NCBI GenBank assembly: GCA_041665025.1
Contig: JBAYJP010000007.1
Span: 1-37,028 of the forward strand
Source of the DNA: Candidatus Magasanikiibacteriota bacterium
Lineage (GTDB): Bacteria; Patescibacteriota; Patescibacteriia; Magasanikbacterales; UBA922
Length of the DNA: 37,028 bases
Reading direction: 5' to 3'
The notes under the pieces are model-generated. The model saw only the letters and a program-made list of their open reading frames with translations. It was not told where the DNA came from and did not search any database. Below are positions 18,949 to 34,241 of this stretch, piece by piece. Within the stretch, counting starts at the first letter, position 1; each line of letters opens with the position of its first letter. Both the position numbers and the translations under genes were made by a program.

Positions 18949-19074
18949 TTTCCGCAGCGAACGGGCTTGTCTACAGCGGCTGATAGCTTGCCTTTGTCAA
19001 GGTGGAGACCTAAATAGGTTCTTACCTTTACAAAGGATAAGCTGCCGCTATAATACCTAGCCCTGATGCGGAAA
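18949..19074 (+). other. 126-nt rod-like imperfect hairpin (candidate structured RNA or ssDNA element)
   Basis: Nested helices fold the whole segment. The pairs are 18949-56/19067-74 (8 bp), 18963-66/19060-63, 18975-80/19044-49 (6 bp), 18985-97/19030-43 (13 bp with one bulge and one G-T) and 18999-19003/19024-28. G-T wobble positions favour the + strand. Confidence 0.5.
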
Positions 19075-19092
19075 AATGGAGGTCGGGAAATT

Positions 19093-19362
19093 TTATGTAG
19101 AGTTTAAATCGTAGTCGCCACCAAGCAACCAATAAGCATTTCGCAAATCATTTTCAATCTTAAAAGTGTCGCCGTGGGTAAGAAGTCCGAGATAGGACTG
19201 CATTACTTCTGGTTGTGGTCTATCCACTAATTTTCTAAACATTCTTTGCTTGGTTTTAACTCTCATTTTTTTGTAATAAGAAAAATGTACCCATCCGAGA
19301 AAATCCATTCCCGAAGCGTGGGTTTTTAGTAATATCTTTGTTGGATGAAGGGTAAGATTCAA
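19093..19362 (-). pseudogene. Reverse-transcriptase C-terminal remnant, DGR-type
   Basis: Only about 89 codons remain, and an in-frame TAA lies just upstream of the TTG codon at 19362. LNLTLHPTKI..GMDFLGWV...KTKQRMFRKL...SYLGLLTHGDT is colinear with the thumb/C-terminus of DGR RTs (L.LhpeK...g.~FLGy...SW.GH....dT). The fingers and palm, including YxDD, are absent. Confidence 0.6.
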
Positions 19363-19450
19363 CCTTGATTATATCAGCAGGTTAGATTGACTATTAAGCC
19401 AAAATTAGGTAAGCTCAAAGGACTTTATGAGAGAAAAATAATCAAAAATT

Positions 19451-20512: not shown

Positions 20513-20525
20513 AACAATACTTTCT

Positions 20526-21782
20526 ATGTTTAAAAAGAGTCTGCTCGTCATTATATTGATTCTACTTTTATTTCTCCTTCCCCAAGCAATACTTAGATTG
20601 TATTTTGGTAAAAGCATTCTTAGTTCGTTGGATGATGTAGAGAATAAGGAGTTTGTCGTGGTGTTTGGAGCAAAAGTATATGCAGACGGCACGTTAAGTC
20701 CAATAGTTACTCAAAGAATTCTAGCAGCAATAGAACTATTTAAACAAGATAAAATTAAAAAAATTTATATCTCGGGCACTAATGAGAGTAATAATGAGGT
20801 AATTGTGTTAAAACAATTTGCCATAGACCACGGAGTACCAGAGGACAAAATAATCAGTGATTTTTTCGGTTTTGATACTAATGACACATGTAAACATTTT
20901 AGTAGATTGGGTTATAATGAAGCTATCTTTTTAACTCAAAGATTTCATTTGCCGCGTTCATTGTACATGTGCAAAAACCAGGGTGTAACGGGCCTCGGAG
21001 TGGCAGTGAATGAACTTGGCTTGATCCCAGCGGATCAGACAAAATTTTTCACCAAAATGTATATCAGGGCGGGTAGATTTTTACGTGAATCGACTTTGAC
21101 GTGGTCGTACATCTTAGGCTTATATGATCATATCTCTAGCCAGGCCGAAGATTTAAGTATAAAAGCAAAAAGTATCTTAAGCATGACTAAATTACAACCG
21201 GACGAATACACTGCCACACTGGAATACAATAGAGAGGCCAAAAAAATCTCTCAGTGGAAAAATGGAGGCGGAGAAATAATCATTAATGGCGGATATTTTG
21301 AGGCAGACTTCTCTCCCTCTGGGTATTTAGTTGTAAACGGCGAAAGAATCGGCGATAACATGTTTGACCGGGACAAGTCTGGATTATTAGTTATTAAAGA
21401 TGGTAAAATCCTAATTAGAGATACTATTGTGCAGCCGGTTACTTCGACAGAACATTTTCAATTCGCCATGCAGAGTTTCCCGTTTATTATTAAAAATAAT
21501 CAGCCAGGCATTAAATCCAATTCAGATAAGAAAGCACGTCGTACAGCAGTAGGAATAGATAACGATGATGTAGTTTATCTTATCACTGCGAATTCAGACA
21601 TTAGTCTTTACGAGTTTATGAATTATCTCTTAAGTTTAGAGATTGCATTTATTAATGTTCTAAATTTAGATGGGGGACCCTCTACCGGAATTTATTCTAA
21701 CTGGAACAATACTAATTTTCTATATGATAGTATGAGTCCTGTCCCAAGTGTTATCCGCTTCCAATATTTACAAAGTAAATAA
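20526..21782 (+). CDS. SanA/DUF218 (YdcF/ElyC-like) domain fused to a phosphodiester glycosidase (NAGPA/DUF2233) domain
   Basis: I prefer the ATG at 20526, which gives MFKKSLLVIILILL, a TM anchor. The N-terminal half (VVVFGAKVYADGTLSPIVTQRILAAIELFKQDKIKKIYISGTN...LTQRFHLPRS) is SanA-like. The C-terminal half (NGGYF, QSFPFII, RRTAVGID, LNLDGGPST) is phosphodiester-glycosidase-like. Confidence 0.6.
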   Translation: MFKKSLLVIILILLLFLLPQAILRLYFGKSILSSLDDVENKEFVVVFGAKVYADGTLSPIVTQRILAAIELFKQDKIKKIYISGTNESNNEVIVLKQFAIDHGVPEDKIISDFFGFDTNDTCKHFSRLGYNEAIFLTQRFHLPRSLYMCKNQGVTGLGVAVNELGLIPADQTKFFTKMYIRAGRFLRESTLTWSYILGLYDHISSQAEDLSIKAKSILSMTKLQPDEYTATLEYNREAKKISQWKNGGGEIIINGGYFEADFSPSGYLVVNGERIGDNMFDRDKSGLLVIKDGKILIRDTIVQPVTSTEHFQFAMQSFPFIIKNNQPGIKSNSDKKARRTAVGIDNDDVVYLITANSDISLYEFMNYLLSLEIAFINVLNLDGGPSTGIYSNWNNTNFLYDSMSPVPSVIRFQYLQSK

Positions 21783-21801
21783 CATAATAATCAATTGTAT
21801 T

Positions 21802-22281
21802 ATGATTGAAGTCAAATCATTTTTAACGCAAAACAATATAGAATTTACCGAACACAATCATCCGGCGGTATATACTTGTGAAGAAGCAGAACAATACTAT
21901 AAGGACATACCAGGAATGCATTGTAAGAATTTGTTTTTGAGAGATAAAAAAGGAGACAATTATTATCTCGTTGTTTTACCAGCTGCTAAACGAATGGACC
22001 TAAAGAAGTTTGGGGATATTGTTGGGTCAAGTAAAATTACGTTTGGCAGTAGTGAAGCACTAAAAGAAAAACTTGGTCTGGAGCCAGGTTCAGTTTCTAT
22101 CTTTGGACTATTAAATAATGCAGGTAAGGATGTTGGTCTTTACATCGATAGAGATGTGTATGAAGCTGAAATAGTAAACTTCCATCCTAATGTTAATACT
22201 TGTACGCTAGGGCTAAATAAGGAGATGTTTCATAAGTTTCTTCAGGTAGGCGGATATGAGATAAATATAATTAGCTTATAA
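21802..22281 (+). CDS. YbaK/ProX-family aminoacyl-tRNA editing domain protein
   Basis: I prefer the ATG at 21802 (MIEVKSFLTQNNIEFTEHNHPAVYTCEEA). HCKNLFLRDKKGDNYYLVVL..KRMDLKKF...PGSVSIFGLLN....FHPNVNT is the typical pattern of a prolyl-tRNA-synthetase-associated domain. Confidence 0.7.
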   Translation: MIEVKSFLTQNNIEFTEHNHPAVYTCEEAEQYYKDIPGMHCKNLFLRDKKGDNYYLVVLPAAKRMDLKKFGDIVGSSKITFGSSEALKEKLGLEPGSVSIFGLLNNAGKDVGLYIDRDVYEAEIVNFHPNVNTCTLGLNKEMFHKFLQVGGYEINIISL

Positions 22282-22288
22282 CTACCGT

Positions 22289-23176
22289 ATGCCCTGGTTT
22301 TTCTTCGCTTTTATCCCCGCCATTGGCGATGCGCTGGGTAATATCTTCGACGGCCATTTTTCCAATAAACATTTTAAAAATCCCTGGATACTTTTGTTTT
22401 ATTCCGGTATTACGGAGTTGCTATTTTTGCCGGTTGTACTTTTGTACAGATTACCGGTGATATTTTCTCCGAAAATTATTGCCCTTTTTGCCGTGGTGGC
22501 TCTTTTGGATTTTTTTACCCTTATTTTCTATTACCAAGCTCTTAAAGAGGACGACACTTCAATTGTTGCTTCTTTGTTTTCACTGGGCAAAGTCTTTGTA
22601 CCGGTTTTGGCATATTTTATGGTTGGAGAGCGACTGACTTTTGTCCAATACATAGCTTTTGTGGTCATTATTTTTTCTTCAACACTTCTGACCGTTTCCA
22701 ACCAGGGCGGTAAAATCAAGTTTAACAAATCACTTCTGCTCATGTGTGCGTCTTCTCTCATTCATTCGGTTGAAGGGGTGATCTACAAATATGCCTTGGA
22801 ACAAGTAGATTGGGTTTCAGGGTTTTTCTACGTGATTATCTTTTCAACCTTGGGTTTTATTATTATTGCCGCATTTAAATACAAGGACATAAAATCTCAT
22901 CTCATGAGTTACAAGAATCATTTTAGATTAATCCTTTTTAATTCCGGTGTTTCTTTTGGTTCTAATTTAGCCTCGGCCCTCGCTTTTTCCATGGCCCCGA
23001 TAACCCTCGTTAAAGGTATATTTGCCACTCAGCCCTTTTTTGTCATTCTTTTGACATATCTTCTACGACCCAGGTTTAAAGCTGAATACCGGGAAAGAAT
23101 GGACGCCGGGAATATGATAAAAAAGTTAGTCTTGTTTTCTGTTATTTTGGTGGCCTTACTATTTGTTGTCTATTAA
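22289..23176 (+). CDS. EamA/DMT-superfamily transporter
   Basis: 295 aa with about 10 predicted TM helices arranged as two similar halves. Confidence 0.55.
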   Translation: MPWFFFAFIPAIGDALGNIFDGHFSNKHFKNPWILLFYSGITELLFLPVVLLYRLPVIFSPKIIALFAVVALLDFFTLIFYYQALKEDDTSIVASLFSLGKVFVPVLAYFMVGERLTFVQYIAFVVIIFSSTLLTVSNQGGKIKFNKSLLLMCASSLIHSVEGVIYKYALEQVDWVSGFFYVIIFSTLGFIIIAAFKYKDIKSHLMSYKNHFRLILFNSGVSFGSNLASALAFSMAPITLVKGIFATQPFFVILLTYLLRPRFKAEYRERMDAGNMIKKLVLFSVILVALLFVVY

Positions 23177-23183
23177 TTTAAAT

Positions 23184-23462
23184 ATGGATCACTTGTTAAT
23201 AGAAAAATTATTACACCTTAAAGAAGGAGACAAGATTAAAATCAATGGCAGATTATTTACCATCCACCAAAAGTCCTTTCATTCAGCAGTAGGTGAATAC
23301 CATGGAGACATCACCACTTATGACCTAGAAAATAATTTTGTATTGGAGCTGGAAGGTGAAAGGCGGCACTTTTTTCAAATCATCGAAAAGAAACATTGGC
23401 TTGGTTTCACGAGTGCTCGATCAAGGGTTGAAAAGATAGAATCGATTGAGATAATAAAATAA
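23184..23462 (+). CDS. Hypothetical protein
   Basis: About 92 aa from the ATG at 23184 (the ORF track begins at a TTG at 23163). It is followed directly by an intrinsic terminator. Confidence 0.45.
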   Translation: MDHLLIEKLLHLKEGDKIKINGRLFTIHQKSFHSAVGEYHGDITTYDLENNFVLELEGERRHFFQIIEKKHWLGFTSARSRVEKIESIEIIK

Positions 23463-23464
23463 AA

Positions 23465-23494
23465 AACTCCTCAAAATCTGAAGAGTTTTTTATT
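23465..23494 (+). terminator. Rho-independent terminator
   Basis: aactcctc-aaaatct-gaagagtt forms a 7/8-bp stem followed by a T6 run, immediately after the stop codon at 23462. Confidence 0.65.
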
Positions 23495-23520
23495 CCTCAA
23501 TCACTTCTACCTAGGTAAAA

Positions 23521-23529
23521 AAGATATTT
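23521..23529. repeat. 9-bp direct repeat AAGATATTT at the left edge of the GC-rich island
   Basis: The identical 9-mer recurs at 28452-28460. GC content jumps immediately after 23529. Confidence 0.5.
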
Positions 23530-23637
23530 GGAAGGGGGATTGGTATCGCTGTCCCCAACAGCGGCCCCGCTTAGCGGGGCGATGCGCGTGCGTTAGTCAT
23601 CGCGCTCCTCCTTGTGTTGTCGCCAGTTGGCTGGCGA

Positions 23638-25092
23638 TCAGTAGTAGGTCGGCTCGAACGGCAGGTCCGGGAAGTTGCACGGACCCCAGCAGTTCGCTGT
23701 GTCGTCGCAATCCACGAACTCGTCCGTGTCGTCGCTCACGCCATTGGTGCAGTCCTCGAACCACTGGGGGTACCAGCAGTCCGGATCGTCACGTGGCGGC
23801 AGACGGTCGTGATCGCTGTCTTCGCTCGCGAACGTGGTGCCCCACTCCTCCGTGCAGACCTCGGGCGCGCGGCAGTACCCTTGGGTCTCGATCGTCACCG
23901 TGAACGGAGCCCACTCGTCGCGCGAGTACATGTGGATGACGAGGAACACCCAGCCTTCACGTGTGGAAAGCCACGAGGTGTGGTCATTGCCACTAATGCC
24001 ACGGTAGGCCGAGGACAGGTAGTGGTAAGCCCCGTTCGGTGGAGTCTCGAGGGCCAGCCAGAAGTCCACGTCGCCGTGGTCATCGCACCCGTTCGACGGG
24101 CACTCATAGGTGAGCTCGGCGTAGACTTCAAGGTTGTTGCACACCGGGATCCCGATGTAGATGTCCCCGTCGTTGCCGTACGGTCCGTCGTAGACGGCCA
24201 CCCCTTCGAGCGTGATCGAGTACACCTCGTTCTCGGGCTGGAGCCAGAGGGCGTTCTCGATGCTGTCGTGTGCGAGGATGGGATCGTTGGGGGCACAGGC
24301 CACGTGGATGAAACACTCGGGGTCGCCGCAGTCCGTCAGCTCGTCGCTGTCATTGTTGACGCCGTCGTCGCAGACTTCACCGCCCCCTTCATCCCAACAC
24401 GCGTTGATCACGTCCTCACCCCAGCAGTTCCCGCTCTGACAGACGGTGTTGGTGTAACAGGGGTCGGGCAGTTCGCACGCCTGTCCCTCGAGGGCCTCGC
24501 GATCGAACACGCAGCCACGCTCCGGGTCGCACATGTCGAGCGTGCACGGGTTGCCGTCGTCGCAGACGAGTTCTTCGCCAGGCACGCACGTGGCGAGGTT
24601 GCAGTGGTCGCCCACGGTGCAGCGGTCGTTGTCCGTGCACTCGATGTGGTCGTCAGCTCTCGGGACGGCGTTCCAGCACTTGTGCCACTCACACCGGTCC
24701 TCCGTGGTGCACGGGTTGCCGTCGTCGCACTCTGCGTCGCTGTCGCAGCAACCCTCGACGCGTTTGACGACACAGGCACCGCGCACGCAGGAGTTCTCGG
24801 TGCAGTAGAGGTCGTCCTCGCAGTCGAAGTCCGTTCTGCACTCGCAGAACGGAACCCACCAGCACTCGGGGTCGTCGCAGTCGATCGCGCCGTCCTTGTT
24901 ATCATCCTTGCCGTTCATGCAGTTCTCCTCCGGCACCGGGACTTCCGGTTCCGGGCAGCTCCTGACGTCTTCCGACATCTGCCCCTCCGAGGTGTCGGTG
25001 TTGCGGTACGGGTTGTACTCGCTGTTGATATCGCAGGCGGAGATGGCGAAGAGGACGAGGAACAGCAGGGCGAGCTTCACGAAACGCTTCAT
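23638..25092 (-). CDS. Secreted Cys-rich lipoprotein (high-GC island)
   Basis: 484 aa with an SD (gagagg) upstream of the ATG. It has a signal peptide and lipobox (LFLVLFAISAC). There are three C-x-[ND]-G-x-[DN]3-x-D-x3-DC-x-D-x2-3-C metal-binding-type motifs (ENCMNGKDDNKDGAIDCDDPEC, EVCDDGVNNDSDELTDCGDPEC, EDCTNGVSDDTDEFVDCDDTANC). There are two CDDGNPCTxDxC repeats and a central beta-sandwich-like region. Third-codon positions are G/C-rich. Confidence 0.8.
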   Translation of the reverse strand: MKRFVKLALLFLVLFAISACDINSEYNPYRNTDTSEGQMSEDVRSCPEPEVPVPEENCMNGKDDNKDGAIDCDDPECWWVPFCECRTDFDCEDDLYCTENSCVRGACVVKRVEGCCDSDAECDDGNPCTTEDRCEWHKCWNAVPRADDHIECTDNDRCTVGDHCNLATCVPGEELVCDDGNPCTLDMCDPERGCVFDREALEGQACELPDPCYTNTVCQSGNCWGEDVINACWDEGGGEVCDDGVNNDSDELTDCGDPECFIHVACAPNDPILAHDSIENALWLQPENEVYSITLEGVAVYDGPYGNDGDIYIGIPVCNNLEVYAELTYECPSNGCDDHGDVDFWLALETPPNGAYHYLSSAYRGISGNDHTSWLSTREGWVFLVIHMYSRDEWAPFTVTIETQGYCRAPEVCTEEWGTTFASEDSDHDRLPPRDDPDCWYPQWFEDCTNGVSDDTDEFVDCDDTANCWGPCNFPDLPFEPTYY

Positions 25093-25219
25093 GACCCACC
25101 TCTCGGTTTTGAGGACACGACTCCCGGTTCCTACTTAGGTTTCGGAACCTTCCAATTTCAGGCACGAATATTTTTCATGCTAAAAACAAGAAGGTTCCCT
25201 TGTAAAGAACGAACAGGAG

Positions 25220-25311
25220 AGTATATCATAATTTGGCTAATTTGTCAATCACTGAACTTTTATATGTGATCTTTTACACGAGATTGACAAATATAGTAGT
25301 AGTGTTATGAT
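25220..25311. promoter_or_regulatory. Divergent near-consensus sigma70-type promoters sharing an 11-bp inverted repeat
   Basis: Plus strand: TTGACA (25284-89), 16-nt spacer, TATGAT (25306-11). Minus strand: TTGACA (25248-43), 17-nt spacer, TATACT (25225-20). The two -35 boxes lie within atttgtcaatc (25240-50) and gattgacaaat (25282-92). Confidence 0.55.
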
Positions 25312-25398
25312 ATTGTGTTGTCCGATGCCCCTCTACTGGGTGTCCTTGGTTGGATTTCCTGACCAAGTCCATTACGGAGGCAACAAAAGGAGCAGGTC

Positions 25399-25920
25399 AT
25401 GGCACGGAAGAAGGCAAAGGGTCCGCAGAGTGTTCAGGATGAGTCCAGCTTCGTCCAGCGTGTATACTTCGCGATCAGCGCTGCCGATCCGAAGAGCCGG
25501 GATTGGGACTCGGTGCCGATCATCCAGCGCTGGATGTGCCCGGAACCGAGCCGTCCCATCGAAGAGCTGGAGCAGGACGAGGCCTGGCCCTCCTACACCG
25601 AGGTCGTGCTGGCCCTCTACAAGCTGGCGACGAGGGAGTACGTCAGCTGGCAGATGATGGAACAGATCATCCATACCCTCGGCCGCTGCAGTAACCACCA
25701 GTTCGGACCGTTCGTCAAGCTGACGAATCCCCGCCACAATCCGAACGAACCCTCGAGGCGCTGGGCCACGCACCGCCTGTATGCGGTCCTCAAAGGCCAC
25801 ACCGGCGGGGGCATGCGCAACTGGCAGCGCGGTGCGATGAAGCGACTGAAGGAGTTGGAATTCCCACTGCCCCAGGTGCTCGACCGCCTCTTCATCGAGA
25901 AGACCCCCGATAACGAATAA
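25399..25920 (+). CDS. Hypothetical protein (high-GC island)
   Basis: 173 aa with an AAGGAG SD 6 nt upstream of the ATG. Third-codon positions are G/C-rich. The antisense 232-aa ORF is judged a shadow ORF. Confidence 0.65.
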   Translation: MARKKAKGPQSVQDESSFVQRVYFAISAADPKSRDWDSVPIIQRWMCPEPSRPIEELEQDEAWPSYTEVVLALYKLATREYVSWQMMEQIIHTLGRCSNHQFGPFVKLTNPRHNPNEPSRRWATHRLYAVLKGHTGGGMRNWQRGAMKRLKELEFPLPQVLDRLFIEKTPDNE

Positions 25921-26027
25921 CCGCTGCTTTCCTACCAGGTGTAACCACGTGATTCCTTCGATCAACTGATCGAACGCGAAGCCGGGGCACCGACGAGTCT
26001 GGCGAGAGATACAATTCTCCTCGCCGA

Positions 26028-26066
26028 CTGACATTATTTCCTTAATACTTAAGGAAATAATGTCAG
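26028..26066. repeat. Perfect 18-bp inverted repeat with a 3-nt loop
   Basis: ctgacattatttccttaa-tac-ttaaggaaataatgtcag. It is AT-rich and sits inside the GC-rich island. Its left arm overlaps the first copy of the 11-bp direct repeat gccgactgaca (26023-33; second copy 26163-73). Confidence 0.85.
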
Positions 26067-26185
26067 GCAAGAAATACTTTAAAAAAATAATCTATATACA
26101 GATAGGGAATGGCTATTAGCCATCTAATCAGATTGCCCTTCTTGATGAGTCGACAACGGATTGCCGACTGACAAGGAGAACCCTA

Positions 26186-26377
26186 ATGGGATCTTGGCTG
26201 GAGGAAAAGTGGGTCAAGGAACCACGGAGATTTCGAGACAACTGGCGGAACGGAGGCGGTGAATTCTTCTCATGCCGTGCGCAACCCACGATGAATGGGG
26301 ACAAGAAGCCGGCGTCGCCGAAGGACATCCCGCCCTTGAAATCGCCGGTGTCCAAGGGACCCGGCCCCGCGGAGTAG
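26186..26377 (+). CDS. Possible small basic protein (uncertain)
   Basis: 63 aa with an AAGGAG SD 7 nt upstream of the ATG. An antisense ORF (26128-26406) shares the same third-codon positions, so composition cannot tell them apart. Confidence 0.3.
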   Translation: MGSWLEEKWVKEPRRFRDNWRNGGGEFFSCRAQPTMNGDKKPASPKDIPPLKSPVSKGPGPAE

Positions 26378-26692
26378 TCGCTCGCAAGCAGTATTTCGTC
26401 CGCCACCCGGCGTACGAAGCCACGCGAGCGGCGTGGCTGGTCGTCTTTCCGACGACTGGCCGCTCCATCCTACCAGAGTAGATAAGGTTACTTGTATATT
26501 CTGGAAGAACCATGAGTTGTTAGACTCGTGGTTTTTTATTTATGACCTTGGTAATAGTAAGTCCGAACACCTGAACTTCGTGGCAGACGGAGATGTCGAG
26601 AAAACGTTGTGATGTTGCATGGCTAGTGGTTTGCGTGTTACAGTATCCTGGACCACTTACCATTGCACGTGCCGGGAATTGAGAGAAGGACA

Positions 26693-26899
26693 ATGCCGAA
26701 AGGTTTGCTAGAAATGTTGAGGGCGGATGCGCGGTCTCTAGAAGACTGGGACCGCCTCGTACCCCCAACAGAAACTCCAAGCACGGTCTTCACCATCGAC
26801 AAAGAGTATGGAATCGAGGCATCGCGCCTGGTCCTGTCGTCGGATGCAGAACGGCGAAAGCGACTCGAAGCAATTCTTGGCCGAAAGGCCACTGTTTGA
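26693..26899 (+). CDS. Small hypothetical protein
   Basis: About 68 aa from the ATG at 26693 (MPKGLLEMLRADARSLEDWDRL...), with a purine-rich gagagaagga just upstream. The sequence is plausible and not low-complexity. Confidence 0.4.
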   Translation: MPKGLLEMLRADARSLEDWDRLVPPTETPSTVFTIDKEYGIEASRLVLSSDAERRKRLEAILGRKATV

Positions 26900-27022
26900 C
26901 CGTTCGGTCAGGAGTCAAAAATACATCAAGCATCGGCACTCTCTGTGGTGGTGGTCGGGTGGCGGAGTGTGCCCTCAAAGGCGCATTCTACCCGTGCTGA
27001 CGCGCAAGCGCCGGCATTCTCA

Positions 27023-27044
27023 GGAGCCGTGCGTGCACGGCTCC
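27023..27044 (+). terminator. GC-rich hairpin, possible terminator
   Basis: ggagccgtgc-gt-gcacggctcc forms a perfect 10-bp stem followed by a T-biased tail (tcttgatttcc). Confidence 0.4.
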
Positions 27045-27251
27045 TCTTGATTTCCGATGTTATTTTGTCTCAACCAGTTTATTGTTATAGCGACGAAGAT
27101 TACCCAGCGACCGGAAAAGTCAATTCTCTTCGTGCACTGACTTTCTGTGATAACAACAAATTTTCTCTCATTTTAATTGCTATCTTAAACAAGTGATAAT
27201 CAGAATCAGAGTAAATTAGTAAATTATTTTGCTTGTCATAACATTAAGGAT

Positions 27252-27330
27252 TAAAAAACCCTGCTCGCTAAAACCTCCTGACCAGAAGCCAATAAGCTGC
27301 TAATCAGGTGGAGCGAGCAGGGTTTCCTTT
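27252..27330. terminator. Bidirectional terminator-like long hairpin
   Basis: aaccctgctcgct (27256-68) pairs perfectly with agcgagcagggtt (27311-23). The 42-nt interior is partly self-complementary. An A6 run lies on the left and tttcctttt on the right. It sits between convergent transcription units. Confidence 0.55.
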
Positions 27331-27532
27331 TCTCCACCTATGGTCCATGGATCATAGCGACCTCCTTTGAAGACAGATCGTATCTGTCTTTTAGTTCTGA
27401 GGATGTTTGTCCTTCTGTTATTTGGGTCGTTGGCCGATCCTATGGATGAGCCAATTGACGCCAAGAACAAAGAGGACCGAACCACAGACGAAGCCTGCGG
27501 CCAAGACTGCCACAACGTGGGGATTTTCCACT

Positions 27533-28039
27533 TCACTTCTTCCTTGTTCTGTTATCACTCTCTCCAGGCCAGATGACCTTGCCGCTACTGTCGAGACAGA
27601 AACCACTATAACACGTGCCGGTGCCTTCTCCGCATGGCGACCCGTTATTAGCCCCTATGTTGAGACAATGGTCGGATGCTTTGATTTTCCAGGTGAAGAG
27701 ACCTTTTCTCCACCCGCAGACGTCGTGCGTGCAGGGGTTGTAGTCATTGCAGTCCCGCAACTCTTCATTCACCTGACCGTTTTCGCAGGTGCACCGCAGG
27801 ATGCAGAATTGGCTCGAGACATGTCGACAGTGTTCGCCGTCTGGCATCTCGAACCACAAGCACTCCGTGCCGGTCCAGAACCGAAAGTTACAGGCGTCTC
27901 CGAACTCGACGCAGTCTTGACGATCGCCTTCGCTGTGGTCGGCATGGGCCCAGGCCCAGCCGAACACACCGGCGACAATCACGAAGAGTAAAAACACATC
28001 AAACCTCGCCCAGCGCTTTTGCGATTTTTTCGCGTTCAT
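27533..28039 (-). CDS. Secreted Cys-rich protein (high-GC island), possibly frameshifted at the 3' end
   Basis: 168 aa with an SD (gagagg) and a signal peptide (FLLFVIVAGVFGWAWA). It contains CNDYNPCTHDVC, related to the CDDGNPCTxDxC repeats of the 484-aa protein. A TM-anchor-encoding frame (27418-27606) overlaps the 3' end. Confidence 0.7.
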   Translation of the reverse strand: MNAKKSQKRWARFDVFLLFVIVAGVFGWAWAHADHSEGDRQDCVEFGDACNFRFWTGTECLWFEMPDGEHCRHVSSQFCILRCTCENGQVNEELRDCNDYNPCTHDVCGWRKGLFTWKIKASDHCLNIGANNGSPCGEGTGTCYSGFCLDSSGKVIWPGESDNRTRKK

Positions 28040-28041
28040 TC

Positions 28042-28395
28042 CTACCTCTCTTCCCCTTTGTCGTCGTAGGTCTTTTTTGTTGTCTTACCTCTTGAGAAGA
28101 TCAGAGGCAGACCGATGCGCAATACGAACCAGAGGATTGCCAAGAGCACAGCCGTATAGATTATATACTCACAGCCCTTGATGACACTCTCGCGCGTCTC
28201 CGGATATTCTTCAGCCAAGTAAGCCGGGAATGCCACAGCGAGGAGCGCCGCGATGACGGCGACCAGCCGATCGAGGACCCTAGTGATGTTAGTGACGTTA
28301 ACGATGTTGGTGATGTGACTCTTGATCGCCACGGTCGCCAGAACCACAACCGTAAGGCAAACCAGAGCCGCGAGTGCAACCAGGTAAACCCACAT
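28042..28395 (-). CDS. Small multi-TM membrane protein (high-GC island)
   Basis: I prefer the ATG at 28395 (MWVYLVALAALVCLTVVVLATVAI...), which has a GGAGAA SD 6 nt upstream. It has three hydrophobic helices. Its stop codon overlaps the SD of the downstream Cys-rich gene. Confidence 0.6.
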   Translation of the reverse strand: MWVYLVALAALVCLTVVVLATVAIKSHITNIVNVTNITRVLDRLVAVIAALLAVAFPAYLAEEYPETRESVIKGCEYIIYTAVLLAILWFVLRIGLPLIFSRGKTTKKTYDDKGEER

Positions 28396-28451
28396 GTCCG
28401 TTCTCCAAGCCAGGCCGTCGTGGCCTCTTAGGTGGGGTTGTGAAAGGACTG

Positions 28452-28460
28452 AAGATATTT
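28452..28460. repeat. 9-bp direct repeat AAGATATTT at the right edge of the GC-rich island
   Basis: Identical to 23521-23529. GC content drops at this point. Confidence 0.5.
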
Positions 28461-28757
28461 TACCAGGCTTGAGATATATTAACAAATGATATAGCTAACT
28501 TGAATTTAGTAAATCTTATTTTAAAGTATCTCGCTTTTTCGATCGAGGTATTTTTATGTTTACTTTTTAAAACTCTATGTTACTATTAAAATAGGGTTTG
28601 CATTTCTTGGCTTGCCCAACCGGTAAGCCGTTCACACCTCTCACAAACTCAGAGCATGAGGAAGGAGCCACTCATACCTCTCTCAGACGAAAAAAGAAGA
28701 CACCCTGTTAATTTAACGAGATGTCTTTAGTTAGGCGTTATCTCACACCCAGACCTT

Positions 28758-28916
28758 TTACATATTGTCTAGAGCTATTTTCAAAATAAAAATTAGGGTA
28801 GCAGACAGCAGACTAAGTGCGATGCCGATATAAATTAGAGTTTGATCTTTTTTTGTGATACCAACTACCAAACATACGACTGCTGCTATTGCAAGAATGA
28901 GGAAGATTAGACTCAT
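28758..28916 (-). CDS. Possible 52-aa two-TM membrane peptide
   Basis: Hand translation gives MSLIFLILAIAAVVCLVVGITKKDQTLIYIGIALSLLSATLIFILKIALDNM. It falls below the ORF-track length cutoff. Confidence 0.3.
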   Translation of the reverse strand: MSLIFLILAIAAVVCLVVGITKKDQTLIYIGIALSLLSATLIFILKIALDNM

Positions 28917-29003
28917 AAAATAGTGTTTTAAAATTAAGTTAATAGTGTGAAACGCCGTTTTTCGAGCCAGATATGCCGTGTTAAGCGATGTTATTTACGG
29001 TTT

Positions 29004-29309
29004 CTATGCATCTTTCGTTCGAATATTAACTCCGCCTATTTTTTTATACTCACGATTTTTATTCTTCGCAACTTTTTTCAAAATTTCTTTTTCAATATCA
29101 ATGTCCAATATGGCAGAAAGTCCAAAAATATATATTGCCACATCCGCTAACTCTTCGCCTAAATCAGGCAACTTTTTGCGGTAGGCGTTAAATGCCTCAG
29201 CAAGTTCACCATAAGTTAGGCCAAACTCAAAATTAATATCTGTCGTGTTAAATCCTTTAGCAACCTTATTATCGTAAATATTTTTTTGGAGTTTTTTTAG
29301 GTCAATCAT
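29004..29309 (-). CDS. MazG-like nucleotide pyrophosphohydrolase (small, single-domain)
   Basis: 101 aa. The motifs GELAEAF...LGEELADVAIYIFGLSAILDIDIEKEILKKVAKNKNREY follow the MazG-like EExxE/D helix pattern. Confidence 0.6.
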   Translation of the reverse strand: MIDLKKLQKNIYDNKVAKGFNTTDINFEFGLTYGELAEAFNAYRKKLPDLGEELADVAIYIFGLSAILDIDIEKEILKKVAKNKNREYKKIGGVNIRTKDA

Positions 29310-29364
29310 AAGTTTTGAAAAAGAAATTTTGAAAAAAGTTGTTCGAGCAAATAATTTCGCTTAA

Positions 29365-30438
29365 CTATTCAATATACTTGTAGCAACGCTCCTGGCTAAT
29401 TTTTAGCTCTGAAGTTTGAGGAATAATTTTTTCTGGGTTATATCCACCATAGGACTGCAGACTTTTTTCCGCATAAACACCTAGCTGACCTTGTTTATCT
29501 AATTTATTAGCCAATGCAACCATTTCCGTCATGGGATATTTCTCAAGGTCAATAAACCAAACTACTGGCTCGTTATTCTCATAGGCTTGTAACAAAGGAG
29601 CATATTTTTTCATCTCTTCCTCGTATTTATCTTGTACAGCGGCTTCTGATCCGCCCACAGATGTTAATATTGGTTTTAGTAACTCGGCAAGCGGTTCGTT
29701 CGCAGTGTCCTTACCAAAGGAAGAATAGAATAAACTATTGAAATTAAGAGTAAAATAATCTCCCTTATTTTCTTTTTTTGCAATGACCATGAAACGGATA
29801 GTGAGATCATTTTCTTGGATTAGTTTTTGTATTTCGTGTTTGGAGAGTGGTTCTAAAAAGAAAAGTCTACTGTAAAATCCGTTTGCTTCATGTTCAGTAC
29901 AAAAATTCTGTTCAAAAGATAGAGACCTTGTCCAGGAGCGAGAAATAAATAGTGTGCCGGATAATAAAAAAATAAGGAGAGAGACAAGGATAACTGTTGA
30001 AAATTTCCACGCAGAAAAAAATCTTCGAAATAAGAAGAAAAGCAAGGCAAAACCAAATTGAATTAATAAATACTCAATGAGGTAAAGTTCCACGCTCGCA
30101 ACAATAAAAGCCCCGCCCATGCCTTCACCTCGGTATTGTAGTGCGTTATATAGACTGATCGTGGGAGATAACAGAAGCAAAATGAAGAGGCCCAAGGTAA
30201 ACAGTAGTAGGTACTTTCTTTTCATTAGTTGTTCTCCTAAATAGAAAATAGCAATGAGCGGAATTATAGGTAGGACAAAGATGGGTAATCCAATGCCTAA
30301 AAGTTTAAATATTGAATTACGGTCAGTGTGGAAATAGGCTGCTCCTAGGCCGCTATAAGTAATGGCAGCATAACTTCCAAACCATAAAATACAGGCTAAG
30401 AGAAAATACCAAACATGCTTTTTTAACAACATTTTCAT
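29365..30438 (-). CDS. Polytopic membrane protein with C-terminal soluble domain, function unknown
   Basis: 357 aa with about 6 TM helices in the first 170 aa, followed by a hydrophilic domain. I recognise no motif. Confidence 0.55.
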   Translation of the reverse strand: MKMLLKKHVWYFLLACILWFGSYAAITYSGLGAAYFHTDRNSIFKLLGIGLPIFVLPIIPLIAIFYLGEQLMKRKYLLLFTLGLFILLLLSPTISLYNALQYRGEGMGGAFIVASVELYLIEYLLIQFGFALLFFLFRRFFSAWKFSTVILVSLLIFLLSGTLFISRSWTRSLSFEQNFCTEHEANGFYSRLFFLEPLSKHEIQKLIQENDLTIRFMVIAKKENKGDYFTLNFNSLFYSSFGKDTANEPLAELLKPILTSVGGSEAAVQDKYEEEMKKYAPLLQAYENNEPVVWFIDLEKYPMTEMVALANKLDKQGQLGVYAEKSLQSYGGYNPEKIIPQTSELKISQERCYKYIE

Positions 30439-30527
30439 AGTATGAGCAATTATAGAAGTAATATTAATGGAGATAGAGCGTTTTGTCCAGCTAGAAGTCA
30501 GTTAGCGTCTTATACACATAAGCATAT

Positions 30528-30556
30528 TTGACATTTTTTGTTATTTGCATTAAGCT
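30528..30556 (+). promoter_or_regulatory. Candidate promoter of the thr leader
   Basis: TTGACA (30528-33), 17-nt spacer, TAAGCT (30551-56), about 15 nt upstream of the leader ATG. The -10 box is weak. Confidence 0.3.
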
Positions 30557-30570
30557 GACTTCAACACAAT

Positions 30571-30648
30571 ATGACTACTACATTTCGTCTAACAACTACC
30601 ACAACTACCACAACCACCCATAAGTGGCTGAAGTTTGTTGTGAAATAA
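30571..30648 (+). CDS. Thr-rich leader peptide (thrL-like) of the threonine operon
   Basis: Hand translation gives MTTTFRLTTTTTTTTTHKWLKFVVK*. Twelve of the 25 codons are Thr, including a run of nine. It sits directly upstream of an intrinsic terminator and thrA. Confidence 0.75.
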   Translation: MTTTFRLTTTTTTTTTHKWLKFVVK

Positions 30649-30668
30649 TATTTAATCATCACATCACG

Positions 30669-30697
30669 ACCGACCTCAGCCTAGAGGTCGGTTTTTT
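30669..30697 (+). terminator. Attenuator terminator of the thr leader
   Basis: accgacctc-agccta-gaggtcggt forms a perfect 9-bp stem followed by a T6 run. It ends 14 nt before the thrA ATG. Confidence 0.75.
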
Positions 30698-30710
30698 AAT
30701 GTTTAACATT

Positions 30711-33164
30711 ATGAAGGTACTTAAATTTGGGGGTTCATCTGTGGCTAACGCAGAAAATATCAAAAAAGTAATTGATATAATTCAGAACTCTATCAAGAAA
30801 GATAAGCAGTCCATTGTCGTCGTGTCTGCTCTTGGTGGTGTAACTGATAACCTCATAAACCTGGCCCATCTTGCATCTAAAGGAGACCGCACGTATAGAA
30901 AGTTAATGAAAGAAATTTTTGAACAGCATGATTTTGTGGTGCGTAAACTTGTCAGCAAAAAAATACAAAGTCTTATTTTAGTAAAAATTAAAGAGAAATA
31001 TGATGAACTTAGTGATGCGTTGAGAGGAATATATCTATTAGGAGAACTGTCTGCTCGATCATTAGACAAAATAATAAGTTATGGGGAACAATTATCCTCG
31101 TACATTATCTGTGAAGCGATAAGAGACAAGGGCATTGATTGTAATTTTGTAGATGCCCGTGAATTAATTAAGACTGATGACAATTTTGGGTCCGCACAAG
31201 TAGATATTGAAAAAACATGCAAGCTCCTCTCAGGCTATTTCAAAAAATATAACGGTCTTTCTATTATGGGTGGTTTTATTTCTTCAAGTACGGATGGAAT
31301 TACCACCACACTTGGACGAGGTGGTTCTGACTATACTGCCTCTTTGGTTGGTGCCGCGCTTGATGCTCATATAATTGAAATATGGACCGATGTTGACGGG
31401 GTACTTACCGCAGACCCTCGAAAAGTACCGCATGCTTTCCTACTCGCACAAATATCTTATGAGGAGGCGGGAGAACTTGCACATTTTGGGGCAAAAGTTA
31501 TACATCCCAAAACTATGAAACCCGCACGGTTTAAAGGTATACCTATTGATATAAAAAATACGTTTAATCCTACAGCTCCAGGCACTAGAATATGCAAAGA
31601 TACCCTAAAACAAAATTTCGCCATACGAGCGATATCCTCACTCAGTAATGTCTCACTGTTGCACATACAATCAAACAATGGTAGGGTCATTGGAGAAATT
31701 GCCGCAAAAATATTTCATTCGTTATCCCGATCTGACGTCGAAATTTTACTCATCACACAAGCATCGCACGAGCAGTCGCTTTCTATTGCAGTTCCAGAAG
31801 ACCAGGTACAACGAGCAAAGGAAGGTATTGAGAGGGAGTTTGAGTTGGAATTACAAGCTAAGTATATATCGCCAATTTCTATTAAAAATAAATTATCTAT
31901 TGTCGCGATTGTTGGGCGACATATGCAGGGCGTACCAGGTATATCAGGGAAACTATTTAGTACCCTTGGGAAGAGTGATATTAATGTTGTTGCTATAGCG
32001 CAAGGGTCGTCTGAGTTAAATATATCTATAGTAATAGATTCACAGGATGAAAAGAAGGCTTTAGGGGAAATTCATAAAGCATTTTTTGAAACGCAAGATA
32101 ATAGCATACATGTATTTCTTGTCGGGACTGGACTTATTGGTTCCACCCTCTTAAGACAAATAAAAGAATCCAAACTTCCTGTAAGGCTATGTGGTATATC
32201 TAATAGTCAGCGTATGATCATAAATGAAAGCGGGATACTGCTGCAAGATTGGGAAACATCACTGGGTGGAGGACAGCAGAATGACTTGTCAGATTTTATT
32301 TCAAACATGATAAACCTTAATCTTCCCCATACCGTCTTTGTAGATTGTACAGCAAGTGAAGATGCCGTTTCTTTTTATGAAAATATTCTTAAGTCTGGTG
32401 TTGCTATTGTCACCCCAAATAAGAAAGCAAATTCTAATTCGCTTTTGAAATACAAAAGGCTTAAGCAATTATCCAAGGAAAGGTATACACCATTTTTCTA
32501 TGAAACCAATGTCGGTGCAGCTCTCCCCATCATACGTACCATACAAGATCTTGTAGCAAGTGGCGACCAGATTATCAAGATAGAAGCCATACTTTCGGGA
32601 ACTCTAAGTTATATATTCAATACATTTTCACGTGCCAATAAAGCATTTAGTAGCATCGTTCGGGAGGCACAGGAAAATGGCTATACTGAACCTGATCCGA
32701 GAGATGATTTAAATGGAAAGGACTTTGCGCGGAAAATGCTTATCTTAGGTCGAGAAATAGGCATGCCCATGGAACTTTCCAACGTACATGTTGAAACATT
32801 GCTATCAGATGAATGTATGCAAGCAGAGTCAATTACAGAGTTTTATAATAAGCTCAAAGAAATGGATTCAATATTTAAAAGACAGAGAGATAAGGTACAA
32901 GCATGTAATAAAGTTTTACGATATATTGGGGTATTGGAAAAAGACAAATCAAAAATAATGCTTAAGGAGGTAGATAGTACAAGTCCATTCTACTCACTTG
33001 AAGGTAGTGATAACCTCATTTCTATTACCACAAAACGGTACTGCACTACGCCGTTGGTAATCCGAGGTCCTGGTGCCGGGGCTGAAGTTACTGCCGGTGG
33101 GGTACTCGCAGATATTATTCATTGTTTACCTAATCAAAATATATATGAACAAGCTCACAAATAA
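30711..33164 (+). CDS. thrA: Bifunctional aspartokinase / homoserine dehydrogenase
   Basis: The start is taken at the ATG at 30711 (MKVLKFGGSSVANAENI). It has an aspartokinase N-terminus, ACT-like middle regions, a homoserine dehydrogenase Rossmann motif (VFLVGTGLIGSTLL) and a C-terminal RGPGAGAEVTAGGV. Confidence 0.9.
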   Translation: MKVLKFGGSSVANAENIKKVIDIIQNSIKKDKQSIVVVSALGGVTDNLINLAHLASKGDRTYRKLMKEIFEQHDFVVRKLVSKKIQSLILVKIKEKYDELSDALRGIYLLGELSARSLDKIISYGEQLSSYIICEAIRDKGIDCNFVDARELIKTDDNFGSAQVDIEKTCKLLSGYFKKYNGLSIMGGFISSSTDGITTTLGRGGSDYTASLVGAALDAHIIEIWTDVDGVLTADPRKVPHAFLLAQISYEEAGELAHFGAKVIHPKTMKPARFKGIPIDIKNTFNPTAPGTRICKDTLKQNFAIRAISSLSNVSLLHIQSNNGRVIGEIAAKIFHSLSRSDVEILLITQASHEQSLSIAVPEDQVQRAKEGIEREFELELQAKYISPISIKNKLSIVAIVGRHMQGVPGISGKLFSTLGKSDINVVAIAQGSSELNISIVIDSQDEKKALGEIHKAFFETQDNSIHVFLVGTGLIGSTLLRQIKESKLPVRLCGISNSQRMIINESGILLQDWETSLGGGQQNDLSDFISNMINLNLPHTVFVDCTASEDAVSFYENILKSGVAIVTPNKKANSNSLLKYKRLKQLSKERYTPFFYETNVGAALPIIRTIQDLVASGDQIIKIEAILSGTLSYIFNTFSRANKAFSSIVREAQENGYTEPDPRDDLNGKDFARKMLILGREIGMPMELSNVHVETLLSDECMQAESITEFYNKLKEMDSIFKRQRDKVQACNKVLRYIGVLEKDKSKIMLKEVDSTSPFYSLEGSDNLISITTKRYCTTPLVIRGPGAGAEVTAGGVLADIIHCLPNQNIYEQAHK

Positions 33165-34236: not shown

Positions 34237-34241
34237 ATAAT

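What the first reader, a model, noticed from the sequence alone, without database searches (positions are those of the whole stretch)
23510..28467. 4.9-kb high-GC island inserted into a hairpin, bracketed by a 9-bp direct repeat and using a different translation-initiation style
Spot counts give about 60% GC inside the island (for example line 24301) and about 33% in the backbone (for example line 12001). The transitions are abrupt and coincide with identical 9-mers AAGATATTT at 23521-29 and 28452-60. Deleting the island plus one repeat copy joins cctaggtaaaa to ttttaccagg. That forms a 10-bp hairpin (one bulge) in the convergent intergenic region, which would be a plausible former terminator. 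Island genes have clear Shine-Dalgarno sites (gagagg, aaggag, ggagaa, gagagg). Backbone genes, including the T4CP, VirB4, KAP, thrA, asd and thrC genes, have essentially none. The island encodes no recombinase and has no terminal inverted repeats. The evidence points to acquisition from a distant high-GC donor by an unknown mechanism that generates a target-site duplication.
Basis: partly seen in the sequence, partly recalled or inferred. Interest (0 to 1): 0.7.

Follow-up and report, generated by a model that had tools for sequence, protein, structure and literature searches.

The report
Foreign high-GC gene islet, CPR bacterium
A 4.9-kb stretch of GC-rich genes with ribosome-binding sites really is embedded in the AT-rich genome of an ultra-small groundwater (CPR/Patescibacteria) bacterium; it is a genuine, mosaic, horizontally acquired gene islet, an ordinary kind of event, and how it inserted cannot be settled from the available data.

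Summary
GC jumps from 31-42% to 44-67% at 23530 and about 28440. The 9-mer AAGATATTT occurs on the + strand only at these two borders (chance about 0.4-2%). All 6 island genes have Shine-Dalgarno sites and GC3 of 0.55-0.86. None of 30 backbone genes has one, and their GC3 is 0.26-0.48.

It is not an assembly chimera. A second assembler reproduces both junctions exactly. The left junction also recurs, 92-97% identical, in another groundwater dataset.

The host is a Magasanikbacteria-like CPR bacterium. The island is mosaic: the related locus lacks the 1.7-kb lipoprotein module. The 173-aa gene belongs to a CPR-resident family. In a Nomurabacteria genome that family sits beside a T4SS coupling-protein gene, is again GC3-rich and SD-led, and shares the promoter and a structured leader. 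So a "distant donor" is only partly right. Only the cysteine-rich lipoprotein points to Myxococcota-like bacteria, and only at domain level.

No empty site exists in any collection searched, so a target-site duplication is unproven. The "hairpin" is weak, lacks a U-tract and is not conserved.

The most likely mechanism is stepwise illegitimate (short-homology) integration without an island-encoded recombinase. Interest is modest.

The parts
23530..28451 (.). High-GC, SD-using gene islet (mosaic)
   Evidence: GC profile and change points; GC3 and SD; tetranucleotides
23521..23529 (+). Left copy of the 9-mer AAGATATTT
   Evidence: also present in L007/L008 from another dataset
28452..28460 (+). 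Right copy of the 9-mer AAGATATTT; it overlaps the -10 box of the leftward promoter
23458..23494 (+). Intact intrinsic terminator of the backbone gene 23184-23462 (16-nt arms followed by a T-run)
   Evidence: -12.8 kcal/mol, z -6.1; 100% conserved in L007/L008
23541..25280 (.). Lipoprotein module, present in the window and replaced by 100 nt of AT-rich DNA in the related locus L006/L008
23638..25092 (-). 484-aa secreted cysteine-rich lipoprotein (lipobox ISAC; Dicty_CTDC and acidic double-disulfide repeats), GC3 0.86, SD GAGAGG
23564..23580 (-). GC-rich hairpin (GCCCCGC-TTA-GCGGGGC) 3' of the lipoprotein gene
   Evidence: read from the sequence
25220..25311 (.). Back-to-back near-consensus sigma-70 promoters (TTGACA-17-TATACT leftward, TTGACA-16-TATGAT rightward; 11 of 12 matches each)
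   Evidence: the rightward one is conserved in L008 and in the Nomurabacteria locus L185
25312..25398 (+). Conserved structured 5' leader of the 173-aa gene (GATGCCCCT-N5-GGGTGTC hairpin, a covarying hairpin, an outer stem)
   Evidence: no Rfam match
25399..25920 (+). 173-aa all-alpha protein of a CPR-resident family; GC3 0.83, SD AAGGAG; under purifying selection
   Evidence: (dN/dS 0.25)
26028..26066 (.). Perfect 18-nt-arm palindrome after the 173-aa gene; contigs L006 and L008 end inside it
26186..26377 (+). 63-aa ORF with SD AAGGAG (unverified gene)
26693..26899 (+). 68-aa ORF with SD GAGAGAAGG (unverified gene)
27533..28039 (-). 168-aa cysteine-rich protein with an N-terminal hydrophobic segment (weak Dicty_CTDC match), GC3 0.67
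28042..28395 (-). 117-aa membrane protein, SD GGAGAA, first gene of the leftward operon
28457..28485 (-). Promoter-like site TTGTTA-17-TAAAAT straddling the right junction (-35 in the backbone, -10 in the 9-mer)
23507..23516 (+). 10-mer CTACCTAGGT. Its second exact copy (CTACTTAGGT) lies at 25131-25140, so the two bracket the lipoprotein gene. This motif is the only altered part of the left flank in L008

Best explanation
The segment 23530-28451 is a genuine, horizontally acquired, mosaic gene islet. It sits in a variable region of the AT-rich, Shine-Dalgarno-free genome (or large genomic element) of a Magasanikbacteria-like CPR bacterium from groundwater.

The islet was assembled in at least two steps. 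One part is the promoter, leader and 173-aa gene, and probably also the right-hand small-gene and membrane/Cys-rich operon. This part comes from the GC-richer gene pool that circulates among CPR bacteria near their type IV secretion genes. The other part is a 1.7-kb module that encodes a secreted cysteine-rich lipoprotein of Myxococcota-like type.

The islet carries no mobility genes. Integration was most likely recombinase-independent illegitimate recombination at short homology. The foreign DNA would have arrived through competence or the neighbouring conjugation-type machinery. The 9-mer AAGATATTT would then be the crossover microhomology of a single-crossover (Campbell-type) integration, which leaves one copy on each side.

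Shown: foreign composition, continuity, mosaicism, purifying selection, and the absence of a recombinase and of inverted repeats. Inferred: the donor identities, the number of events and the integration mechanism. I give the mechanism itself about 0.35-0.4.
For: - Composition, codon and SD contrast.
- Both junctions are identical in the MEGAHIT and Logan assemblies.
- The left junction, the promoter and the 173-aa gene recur at 92-97% identity in L006/L007/L008 from another groundwater dataset.
- The 173-aa gene has dN/dS 0.25 and dS 0.22 between the two lineages, so it is functional and has long been retained.
- The lipoprotein module is absent from the relative.
- The 173-aa family is found in a complete Ca. 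Nomurabacteria genome beside a T4CP gene. There too it has AGGAGG and GC3 0.71, against SD-less neighbours at 0.38-0.48, and it shares the promoter and leader.
- The lipoprotein's named best hits are Myxococcota, Deltaproteobacteria and Bradymonadales MAGs.
- The backbone is assigned to CPR by EamA (63-71% to Magasanikbacteria) and by the thrA operon (61-75% to Patescibacteria MAGs).
- The 9-mer occurs on the + strand only at the two borders, P about 0.004-0.02.
- No integrase or transposase domain and no terminal inverted repeats.
- Genomic islands, competence and conjugation are documented as HGT routes in groundwater Patescibacteria (PMC12455944).
Against: - No empty site was found, so neither a duplication nor a crossover core is demonstrated.
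- The right GC change point is 14 nt inside the right 9-mer.
- The donor of most genes is unsampled: the best lipoprotein hit is 38-44% identical over under 33% of the query.
- The 87-nt 'backbone' flank seen in L008 could itself belong to the transferred unit. No EamA relative above 71% exists anywhere, so L008's wider context is unknown.
- Only two independent datasets exist.
- Short-homology illegitimate recombination has not been studied in CPR bacteria.
Confidence: 0.55

Rival explanations
1. The 9-mer repeat is a coincidence. The islet was built piecemeal by several unrelated illegitimate insertions, replacements and deletions in a recombination-prone intergenic region, with no single integration event and no defined ends.
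For: The islet is mosaic: the module at 23541-25280 is replaced by 100 nt in L008, and the two halves differ in GC. The right GC change point (28438) does not coincide with the 9-mer. The 9-mer is AT-rich in an AT-rich backbone, and its right copy doubles as a -10 box. The hairpin is not conserved.
Against: The 9-mer's only two + strand copies in 37 kb are at the two borders, and the left one abuts the change point exactly. The chance probability is 0.4-2%.
Confidence: 0.22
2. Site-specific integration by a tyrosine or serine recombinase supplied in trans, such as a host Xer-type (IMEX-like) enzyme or the integrase of a neighbouring element. It would act on an imperfectly palindromic attB, CCTAGGTAAAA-AAGATA-TTTTACCAGG. 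The 9-mer would be the shared core of attL and attR.
For: The reconstructed site has the architecture of two 10-11-nt inverted arms around a 6-nt spacer. The islet has no recombinase of its own and no inverted repeats, as in IMEX elements. The site lies between convergent genes. The 26 nt GTAAAAAAGATATTTGGAAGGGGGAT are 100% conserved in L008, whereas the gene has dS 0.22.
Against: The reconstructed attP (right end joined to left end) has no dyad symmetry (read). The site matches canonical dif sequences at only 12-14 of 28 positions. The left arm is not conserved in L008. The window encodes no recombinase.
Confidence: 0.1
3. Non-autonomous transposition. A transposase acting in trans made a 9-bp staggered cut, as IS4/Tn5-, Tn10- or IS1-type enzymes do, and inserted the segment, duplicating AAGATATTT.
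For: There is an exact 9-bp direct repeat at the borders. A 9-bp duplication is the hallmark of several DDE transposon families (my own knowledge).
Against: There are no terminal inverted repeats of any length at the ends (GGAAGGGGGATT... versus ...GAAAGGACTG). There is no transposase gene or remnant in six-frame ORFs. No other copy of the ends occurs in the window or in any collection.
Confidence: 0.08
4. Assembly or amplification chimera: reads of a high-GC organism were wrongly joined into a CPR contig.
For: This is metagenomic data, and the composition switch is abrupt. Another public contig met during this work (L007/L098) is indeed chimeric, joined through a 19-21-nt overlap.
Against: MEGAHIT (k=141) and Logan (k=31, my own knowledge) assemblies give identical sequence over 19053-33176. 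The topology leaves and re-enters the same backbone with a 9-bp repeat only, which is too short to mislead either assembler. The left junction recurs in a diverged sequence from a different dataset. A promoter spans the right junction.
Confidence: 0.03

Closest known systems
Genomic islands and individually transferred genes in groundwater Patescibacteria (mSystems 2025, PMC12455944)
   Same: The host phylum and habitat are the same. The island is compositionally deviant and carries no core functions. Competence and conjugation are the suggested routes, and donors are both other Patescibacteria and unrelated groundwater bacteria.
   Different: This is a very small (4.9 kb) islet with an extreme contrast: GC3 up to 0.86 against about 0.3, and SD-led genes in an SD-free genome. 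It has an exact 9-bp flanking repeat, and a second lineage gives direct evidence of mosaicism.
IMEX elements that use host XerCD at dif (CTX-phi, TLC, the gonococcal genetic island)
   Same: There is no self-encoded recombinase and no inverted repeats. The islet is flanked by short direct repeats derived from a palindromic core site with a 6-nt spacer.
   Different: The site is not dif-like (12-14 of 28 matches). It is not known to lie at a replication terminus. The reconstructed attP lacks dyad symmetry. No evidence of excision was obtained.
DDE transposons with 9-bp target duplications (IS4/Tn5, IS10/Tn10, IS1)
   Same: An exact 9-bp direct repeat flanks the inserted DNA.
   Different: There are no terminal inverted repeats, no transposase and no additional copies.
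Short-homology-dependent illegitimate recombination and homology-facilitated illegitimate recombination in transformable bacteria
   Same: Foreign DNA is integrated without a dedicated recombinase, with junctions at microhomologies of a few to about 13 bp. This is compatible with a competent, DNA-scavenging CPR host.
   Different: These processes usually give two different junction microhomologies, or need a homologous anchor. An identical 9-mer on both sides requires a circular intermediate and a single crossover, which is not shown here.

Membership tests
Horizontally acquired genomic island/islet | Composition and codon usage deviate from the host replicon | tested here: met
   GC is 0.44-0.67 against 0.31-0.45. 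GC3 is 0.55-0.86 against 0.26-0.48. Tetranucleotide r is -0.06 to -0.22, against 0.91 among backbone segments
Horizontally acquired genomic island/islet | Presence/absence polymorphism among related genomes | tested here: inconclusive
   The lipoprotein module is absent in L006/L008. No relative with a fully empty site was found
Horizontally acquired genomic island/islet | Gene phylogenetic affinity differs from that of the host | tested here: inconclusive
   The lipoprotein's best hits are Myxococcota/Bradymonadales MAGs, at domain level only. The 173-aa family is CPR-resident. The other genes are orphans
Horizontally acquired genomic island/islet | Integrase and/or tRNA gene at a border | tested here: not met
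   There are no tRNA genes in the window and no recombinase domains
DDE transposon / non-autonomous derivative | Terminal inverted repeats | tested here: not met
   No inverted repeat pairs the two ends (ends read)
DDE transposon / non-autonomous derivative | Target-site duplication of fixed length | tested here: inconclusive
   A 9-bp direct repeat is present, but there is no empty site to show that it was single before insertion
DDE transposon / non-autonomous derivative | Multiple copies, or the same ends at other loci | tested here: not met
   No other copy was found in the window, plasmids, phages or IMG/VR. The junction-flank 31-mer is absent from the JGI collection
IMEX (Xer/dif-integrating element) | Integration site is a dif-like 28-bp XerC/XerD site | tested here: not met
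   The best ungapped match of the reconstructed site is 12 of 28 to E. coli dif and 14 of 28 to B. subtilis dif. The dif sequence of CPR bacteria is unknown to me
IMEX (Xer/dif-integrating element) | No element-encoded recombinase | tested here: met
Integron gene cassette | attC recombination site and a nearby intI/attI | tested here: not met
   No integrase was found. The hairpins between genes (25144-25198, 26028-26066, about 27255-27325) share no common sequence
Assembly chimera | Junctions not reproduced by independent assembly or data | tested here: not met
   The Logan contig is identical across both junctions. The left junction is present in L006-L008. Read-level support could not be examined

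The most novel reading that the evidence does not exclude
The islet may represent a family of recombinase-less, non-autonomous integrating modules that circulate among CPR bacteria. These would be GC-rich, SD-led cargo genes, some preceded by a conserved structured leader RNA. A host or T4SS-element recombinase would insert them in trans at short palindromic sites, leaving a 9-bp core repeat. If so, this would be a new mobilisation route specific to ultra-small symbiotic bacteria, and a marker of gene flow between CPR lineages and their hosts.
Probability: 0.1. Interest if true: 0.65.

Novelty: new member of a known kind. Interest (0 to 1): 0.33.

Why it matters
CPR/Patescibacteria have tiny genomes and depend on other cells, so any foreign gene they keep is informative about their partners and their gene flow.

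This islet is an unusually clean case. The foreign genes still carry their donor-type GC3 and their Shine-Dalgarno sites inside a genome that uses none. One of them has been kept under purifying selection in two diverged lineages.

The islet shows two things:
- SD-led genes are tolerated, and presumably expressed, in an SD-free CPR host.
- A small gene family, with its own promoter and structured leader, moves among CPR genomes near type IV secretion genes.

The secreted cysteine-rich lipoprotein of Myxococcota type hints at contact with such bacteria.

As a phenomenon, genomic islands in Patescibacteria are already documented.

Tried and rejected
1. Empty site. I looked for one in four ways and found none:
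- Exact-protein look-ups of the flanking genes found only this sample.
- thrA-anchored scans of GTDB genomes and JGI metagenomes found nothing closer than 61-64% amino-acid identity, and there was no synteny upstream.
- EamA homologues are at most 71% identical and sit in different gene neighbourhoods.
- A 31-mer from the flank, scanned against JGI contigs, gave 0 hits.

2. L007 as a donor or larger island. I first took L007, a 12.7-kb contig at 62% GC that starts with the window's left junction, for a larger island or the donor genome. I rejected this. It is the L008 sequence fused, through a 19-21-nt overlap, to a high-GC organism whose operon normally lies next to a peptidase S41 gene. It is most likely a low-coverage SPAdes chimera.

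3. Contig start positions as a sign of heterogeneity. L007 and L008 start exactly 76 nt before the island, which could be read as a k=77 graph branch caused by population heterogeneity. I dropped this idea. L006, L007 and L008 are 100% identical and probably derive from one dataset, so the shared ends may only reflect read coverage.

4. Terminal inverted repeats as proof of a linear replicon. The perfect part of the repeat is exactly k nt long (141 for MEGAHIT, and k-1 = 30 for Logan), so the contig ends are graph breaks, not proven molecule ends.

5. Searches that found nothing informative:
- Rfam gave no family hits.
- PHROGs and NCBIfam gave nothing for the island proteins except a repeat model.
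- Pfam on six-frame ORFs of the ORF-poor region 26100-27400 gave nothing.
- The plasmid, phage and IMG/VR collections gave no matches.
- The ten IMG/VR matches to the leader motif are chance matches with no adjacent homologue.

6. Fold of the 173-aa protein. The model is good (pLDDT 84), but the Foldseek search against PDB found only non-significant helical-repeat matches.

7. dif-likeness of the reconstructed site. It is weak.

Full report
**1. The observation**

The composition profile confirms an abrupt island. The backbone is 31-45% GC in 500-nt windows, and the stretch 23501-28500 is 44-65%. At 100-nt resolution the coding parts reach 58-67%. Three intergenic patches drop to 30-35%: 25100-25390, 26000-26130 and 27100-27300. 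The right half, beyond 26500, is only about 51% GC.

AAGATATTT lies at 23521-23529 and 28452-28460. These are its only two + strand copies in the window. A likelihood split places the GC change points at 23530, exactly after the left copy, and at 28438, 14 nt before the right copy. Random pairs of 30-60-nt backbone windows share a 9-mer in 0.35-2.0% of trials.

None of 30 backbone genes has a Shine-Dalgarno-like motif, and their GC3 is 0.26-0.48. All six island genes have one (GAGAGG, AAGGAG, AAGGAG, GAGAGAAGG, GAGAGG, GGAGAA), with GC3 of 0.55-0.86. The island's tetranucleotide profile correlates at -0.06 to -0.22 with backbone segments, which correlate at 0.91 with each other. No recombinase domain and no terminal inverted repeats were found.

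The 'restored hairpin' exists but is weak. It folds at -8.1 to -9.9 kcal/mol with z of -2.4 to -3.1, and 4-6 of 200 shuffles fold as well. It has no U-tract. The real terminator of the upstream gene is intact 25 nt to its left (23458-23494; -12.8 kcal/mol, z -6.1).

**2. It is not an assembly artefact**

The window is ENA contig ERZ27249449:k141_1648349. A Logan contig of run SRR6484324, made by a different assembler, is 100% identical over 19053-33176, which includes both junctions. A 9-bp repeat cannot mislead either assembler. In addition, the path leaves and re-enters the same backbone.

Independent support comes from the only close homologues of the island's 173-aa protein (90% amino-acid identity). 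They lie on three short contigs from another groundwater dataset: L006, L007 and L008. L007 and L008 start at the equivalent of window 23455 and match 23455-23540 at 96.5%. That stretch covers the backbone terminator, the 9-mer and the first 11 island bases, GGAAGGGGGAT. After 100 nt of unrelated AT-rich DNA they match 25281-26053 at 92%. The left junction therefore exists in a diverged lineage.

**3. A false lead resolved**

L007 continues for 12 kb at 62% GC through HEAT, GT9 and radical-SAM genes. This looked like either a much larger island or the donor genome. Cluster look-ups and further contigs show otherwise. That operon normally lies next to a peptidase S41 gene in a high-GC organism common in the same aquifer samples. 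L007 equals L008 (positions 1-756, 100%) plus that organism (from position 736, 99.96%), joined through only 19-21 shared bases. I treat L007 as a low-coverage chimeric contig. Only its first 756 nt are relevant.

**4. Who the host is**

The thrA-asd-223aa-thrC operon to the right of the island is 61-75% identical in protein to MAGs labelled Ca. Kerfeldbacteria or Patescibacteria. The next best matches are Pedobacter, at about 47%. The EamA transporter just left of the island is 63-71% identical to Ca. Magasanikbacteria proteins.

The left part of the window carries a conjugation-type module: T4CP, Replic_Relax, PrgI, a VirB4-like ATPase and an M23 peptidase. It is followed by a KAP NTPase, acetyltransferases and a Shedu-like HNH/SduA_C gene. 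The backbone is therefore a Magasanikbacteria-like CPR bacterium, and the islet lies in a flexible region. In all relatives found, the gene order around EamA or upstream of thrA is different. No empty site is available anywhere.

**5. What the islet contains and where it comes from**

(a) Gene 23638-25092 (-) encodes a 484-aa lipoprotein. It has the lipobox ISAC, Dicty_CTDC repeats and acidic double-disulfide repeats. Its best database hits are 35-45% identical over 20-40% of the query. Where named, they come from Myxococcota, 'Deltaproteobacteria' and Bradymonadales MAGs. This is a domain-level affinity only.

(b) Gene 25399-25920 (+) encodes a 173-aa all-alpha protein. The model has pLDDT 84 and no significant PDB fold match. 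Between the window and L008 it has dN/dS 0.25 and dS 0.22, and GC3 is about 0.83 in both. It is therefore a functional gene that has been retained for a long time.

An exhaustive HMMER search found 16 remote homologues of 146-207 aa (plus one 1107-aa protein with repeated short matches). One cluster includes a protein of the complete Ca. Nomurabacteria genome CP060223.1. There it lies 1 kb from a T4CP gene. In that genome too, the gene has a perfect AGGAGG and GC3 0.71, among SD-less neighbours with GC3 of 0.38-0.48.

The -35 region (AGATTGACAAA) and a roughly 70-nt leader are conserved between the two phylum-level relatives. The consensus fold has 26 pairs, 6 of them with compensatory changes. 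At least this module therefore belongs to a gene pool that circulates within CPR bacteria, not to a distant phylum.

(c) Two small SD-led ORFs (63 and 68 aa) and a leftward operon (a 117-aa membrane protein and a 168-aa Cys-rich protein) have no informative homologues. The stretch 26100-27400 shows no pseudogene remnants.

(d) Near-consensus sigma-70 promoters lie back to back at 25220-25311. A promoter-like site, TTGTTA-17-TAAAAT, spans the right junction, with its -10 box inside the 9-mer.

**6. Mosaicism**

Relative to L008, the window has 1740 nt (23541-25280, the lipoprotein module) where L008 has 100 nt of AT-rich DNA. The sequence on both sides is collinear. The 10-mer CTACYTAGGT occurs exactly twice in the window, at 23507 and 25131, and the two copies bracket the lipoprotein gene. 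The left copy is the only part of the 87-nt flank that differs in L008. I could not turn this into a mechanism. Together with the GC difference between the two halves, it shows that the 'island' is not one insertion unit.

**7. Mechanism**

What is shown:
- an exact 9-bp direct repeat at the compositional borders;
- no mobility gene;
- no inverted ends;
- an imperfectly palindromic reconstructed target.

Transposition in trans is unlikely without terminal repeats and without other copies.

A recombinase acting in trans on a palindromic core (IMEX-like) fits the target architecture. It also fits the complete conservation of GTAAAAAAGATATTTGGAAGGGGGAT in L008. Against it, the reconstructed attP has no dyad symmetry. 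The site matches dif at only 12-14 of 28 positions. The left arm is not conserved.

I therefore favour illegitimate, short-homology integration of DNA that came in through competence or the adjacent conjugation-type system. In this model the 9-mer is the crossover point of a circular intermediate. I give it about 0.35-0.4 for the mechanism itself. The main alternative, at about 0.2, is that the repeat is coincidental in a locus built by several events. All of this is inference. The decisive data are reads showing an empty site or a circular junction.

**8. Comparison with what is known, and verdict**

Genomic islands, individually transferred genes, competence and conjugation have been described for groundwater Patescibacteria (PMC12455944). 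This is a new and unusually sharp member of that kind, not a new kind.

It is correct that the islet is foreign, real and recombinase-less. It overreaches on a single event, on a distant donor, on the target-site duplication and on the former terminator.

Interest is modest (0.33). The more original by-products are listed under 'noticed in passing':
- the SD-led, GC3-rich gene family with a conserved structured leader next to T4SS genes in two CPR lineages;
- the inverted repeat that bounds the whole 37-kb contig.

Noticed in passing
window 1-157 and 36872-37028: The two ends of the contig are inverted repeats of each other: 123 nt are perfect, followed by 4 mismatches in 34 nt. The perfect part plus the 18 nt trimmed from each contig end equals 141, which is the MEGAHIT k. 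The Logan contig (k=31) ends 30 nt into the perfect part. The 36.7-kb segment (T4SS module, defence genes, islet, thrA operon) is therefore bounded by an inverted duplication of at least 175 nt and unknown full length. It could be a linear replicon with long terminal repeats, a composite element or an invertible chromosomal segment.
   Followed up: partly
window 25312-25398; L008 219-310; L185 9788-9883: This is a candidate structured 5' leader RNA upstream of the 173-aa gene family. It has an invariant hairpin (GATGCCC/GGGTGTC), a second hairpin and an outer stem with 6 compensatory pairs between the window and a Nomurabacteria genome, and then the SD. There is no Rfam match. Only 3 sequences are available (2 of them close), and no further hits were found in the loci held.
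   Followed up: partly
L185 (Ca. Nomurabacteria CP060223.1, 533257-553655), genes at 5708, 8355(-), 9881 and 11026: In this roughly 48% GC, largely SD-less CPR genome, four small genes around the T4CP gene have strong SD sites (GGAGG, GAGG, AGGAGG, AGGAGG) and raised GC3 (0.56-0.71, against 0.38-0.48). The pattern resembles the window's islet but is dispersed. The deposited start of the 173-aa homologue (132 aa) appears to be too far downstream; the true start is at 9881, giving 172 aa.
   Followed up: partly
L007/L098 (ENA ERZ5996431 NODE_3593), positions 736-756: This public SPAdes contig (coverage 3.8) appears to be chimeric. An L008-like CPR sequence is joined to a 63% GC organism through a 19-21-nt shared string, GCAGCGCGGTGCGGTGAAG. 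A second switch, at 11062, separates it from contigs L095-L097.
   Followed up: yes
window 29069-29095 and 29315-29341: A perfect 27-nt inverted repeat brackets 219 nt that contain the 5' end of the MazG-like gene (29004-29309, - strand). One arm is inside the coding region and the other lies just upstream of the start codon. It could be an invertible switch or a long-range mRNA pairing.
   Followed up: no
window 30711-36208: A complete thrA-asd-(223-aa kinase-like)-thrC threonine pathway operon lies in a CPR genome. It is shared with a few Patescibacteria MAGs (61-75% amino-acid identity), and the nearest non-CPR relatives are Pedobacter/Bacteroidota (about 47%). This suggests an older acquisition of amino-acid biosynthesis by this CPR clade.
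   Followed up: partly
window 269-10812 and 11705-20512: A Gram-positive-type conjugation/T4SS module is present: T4CP, Replic_Relax, PrgI, a VirB4-like ATPase and an M23 peptidase. It is followed by a KAP NTPase, a SEC-C protein, two acetyltransferases, DUF2321 and a Shedu-like HNH/SduA_C gene. The islet therefore sits at the edge of a mobile/defence region.
   Followed up: partly
window 23614-25269 (+), 27407-27991 (+): The public gene calls on this contig chose long antisense ORFs (551 aa, 181 aa) across the GC-rich genes and missed the real 484-aa and 168-aa genes on the - strand. This is why the exact-protein look-up of the 484-aa product found nothing.
   Followed up: yes
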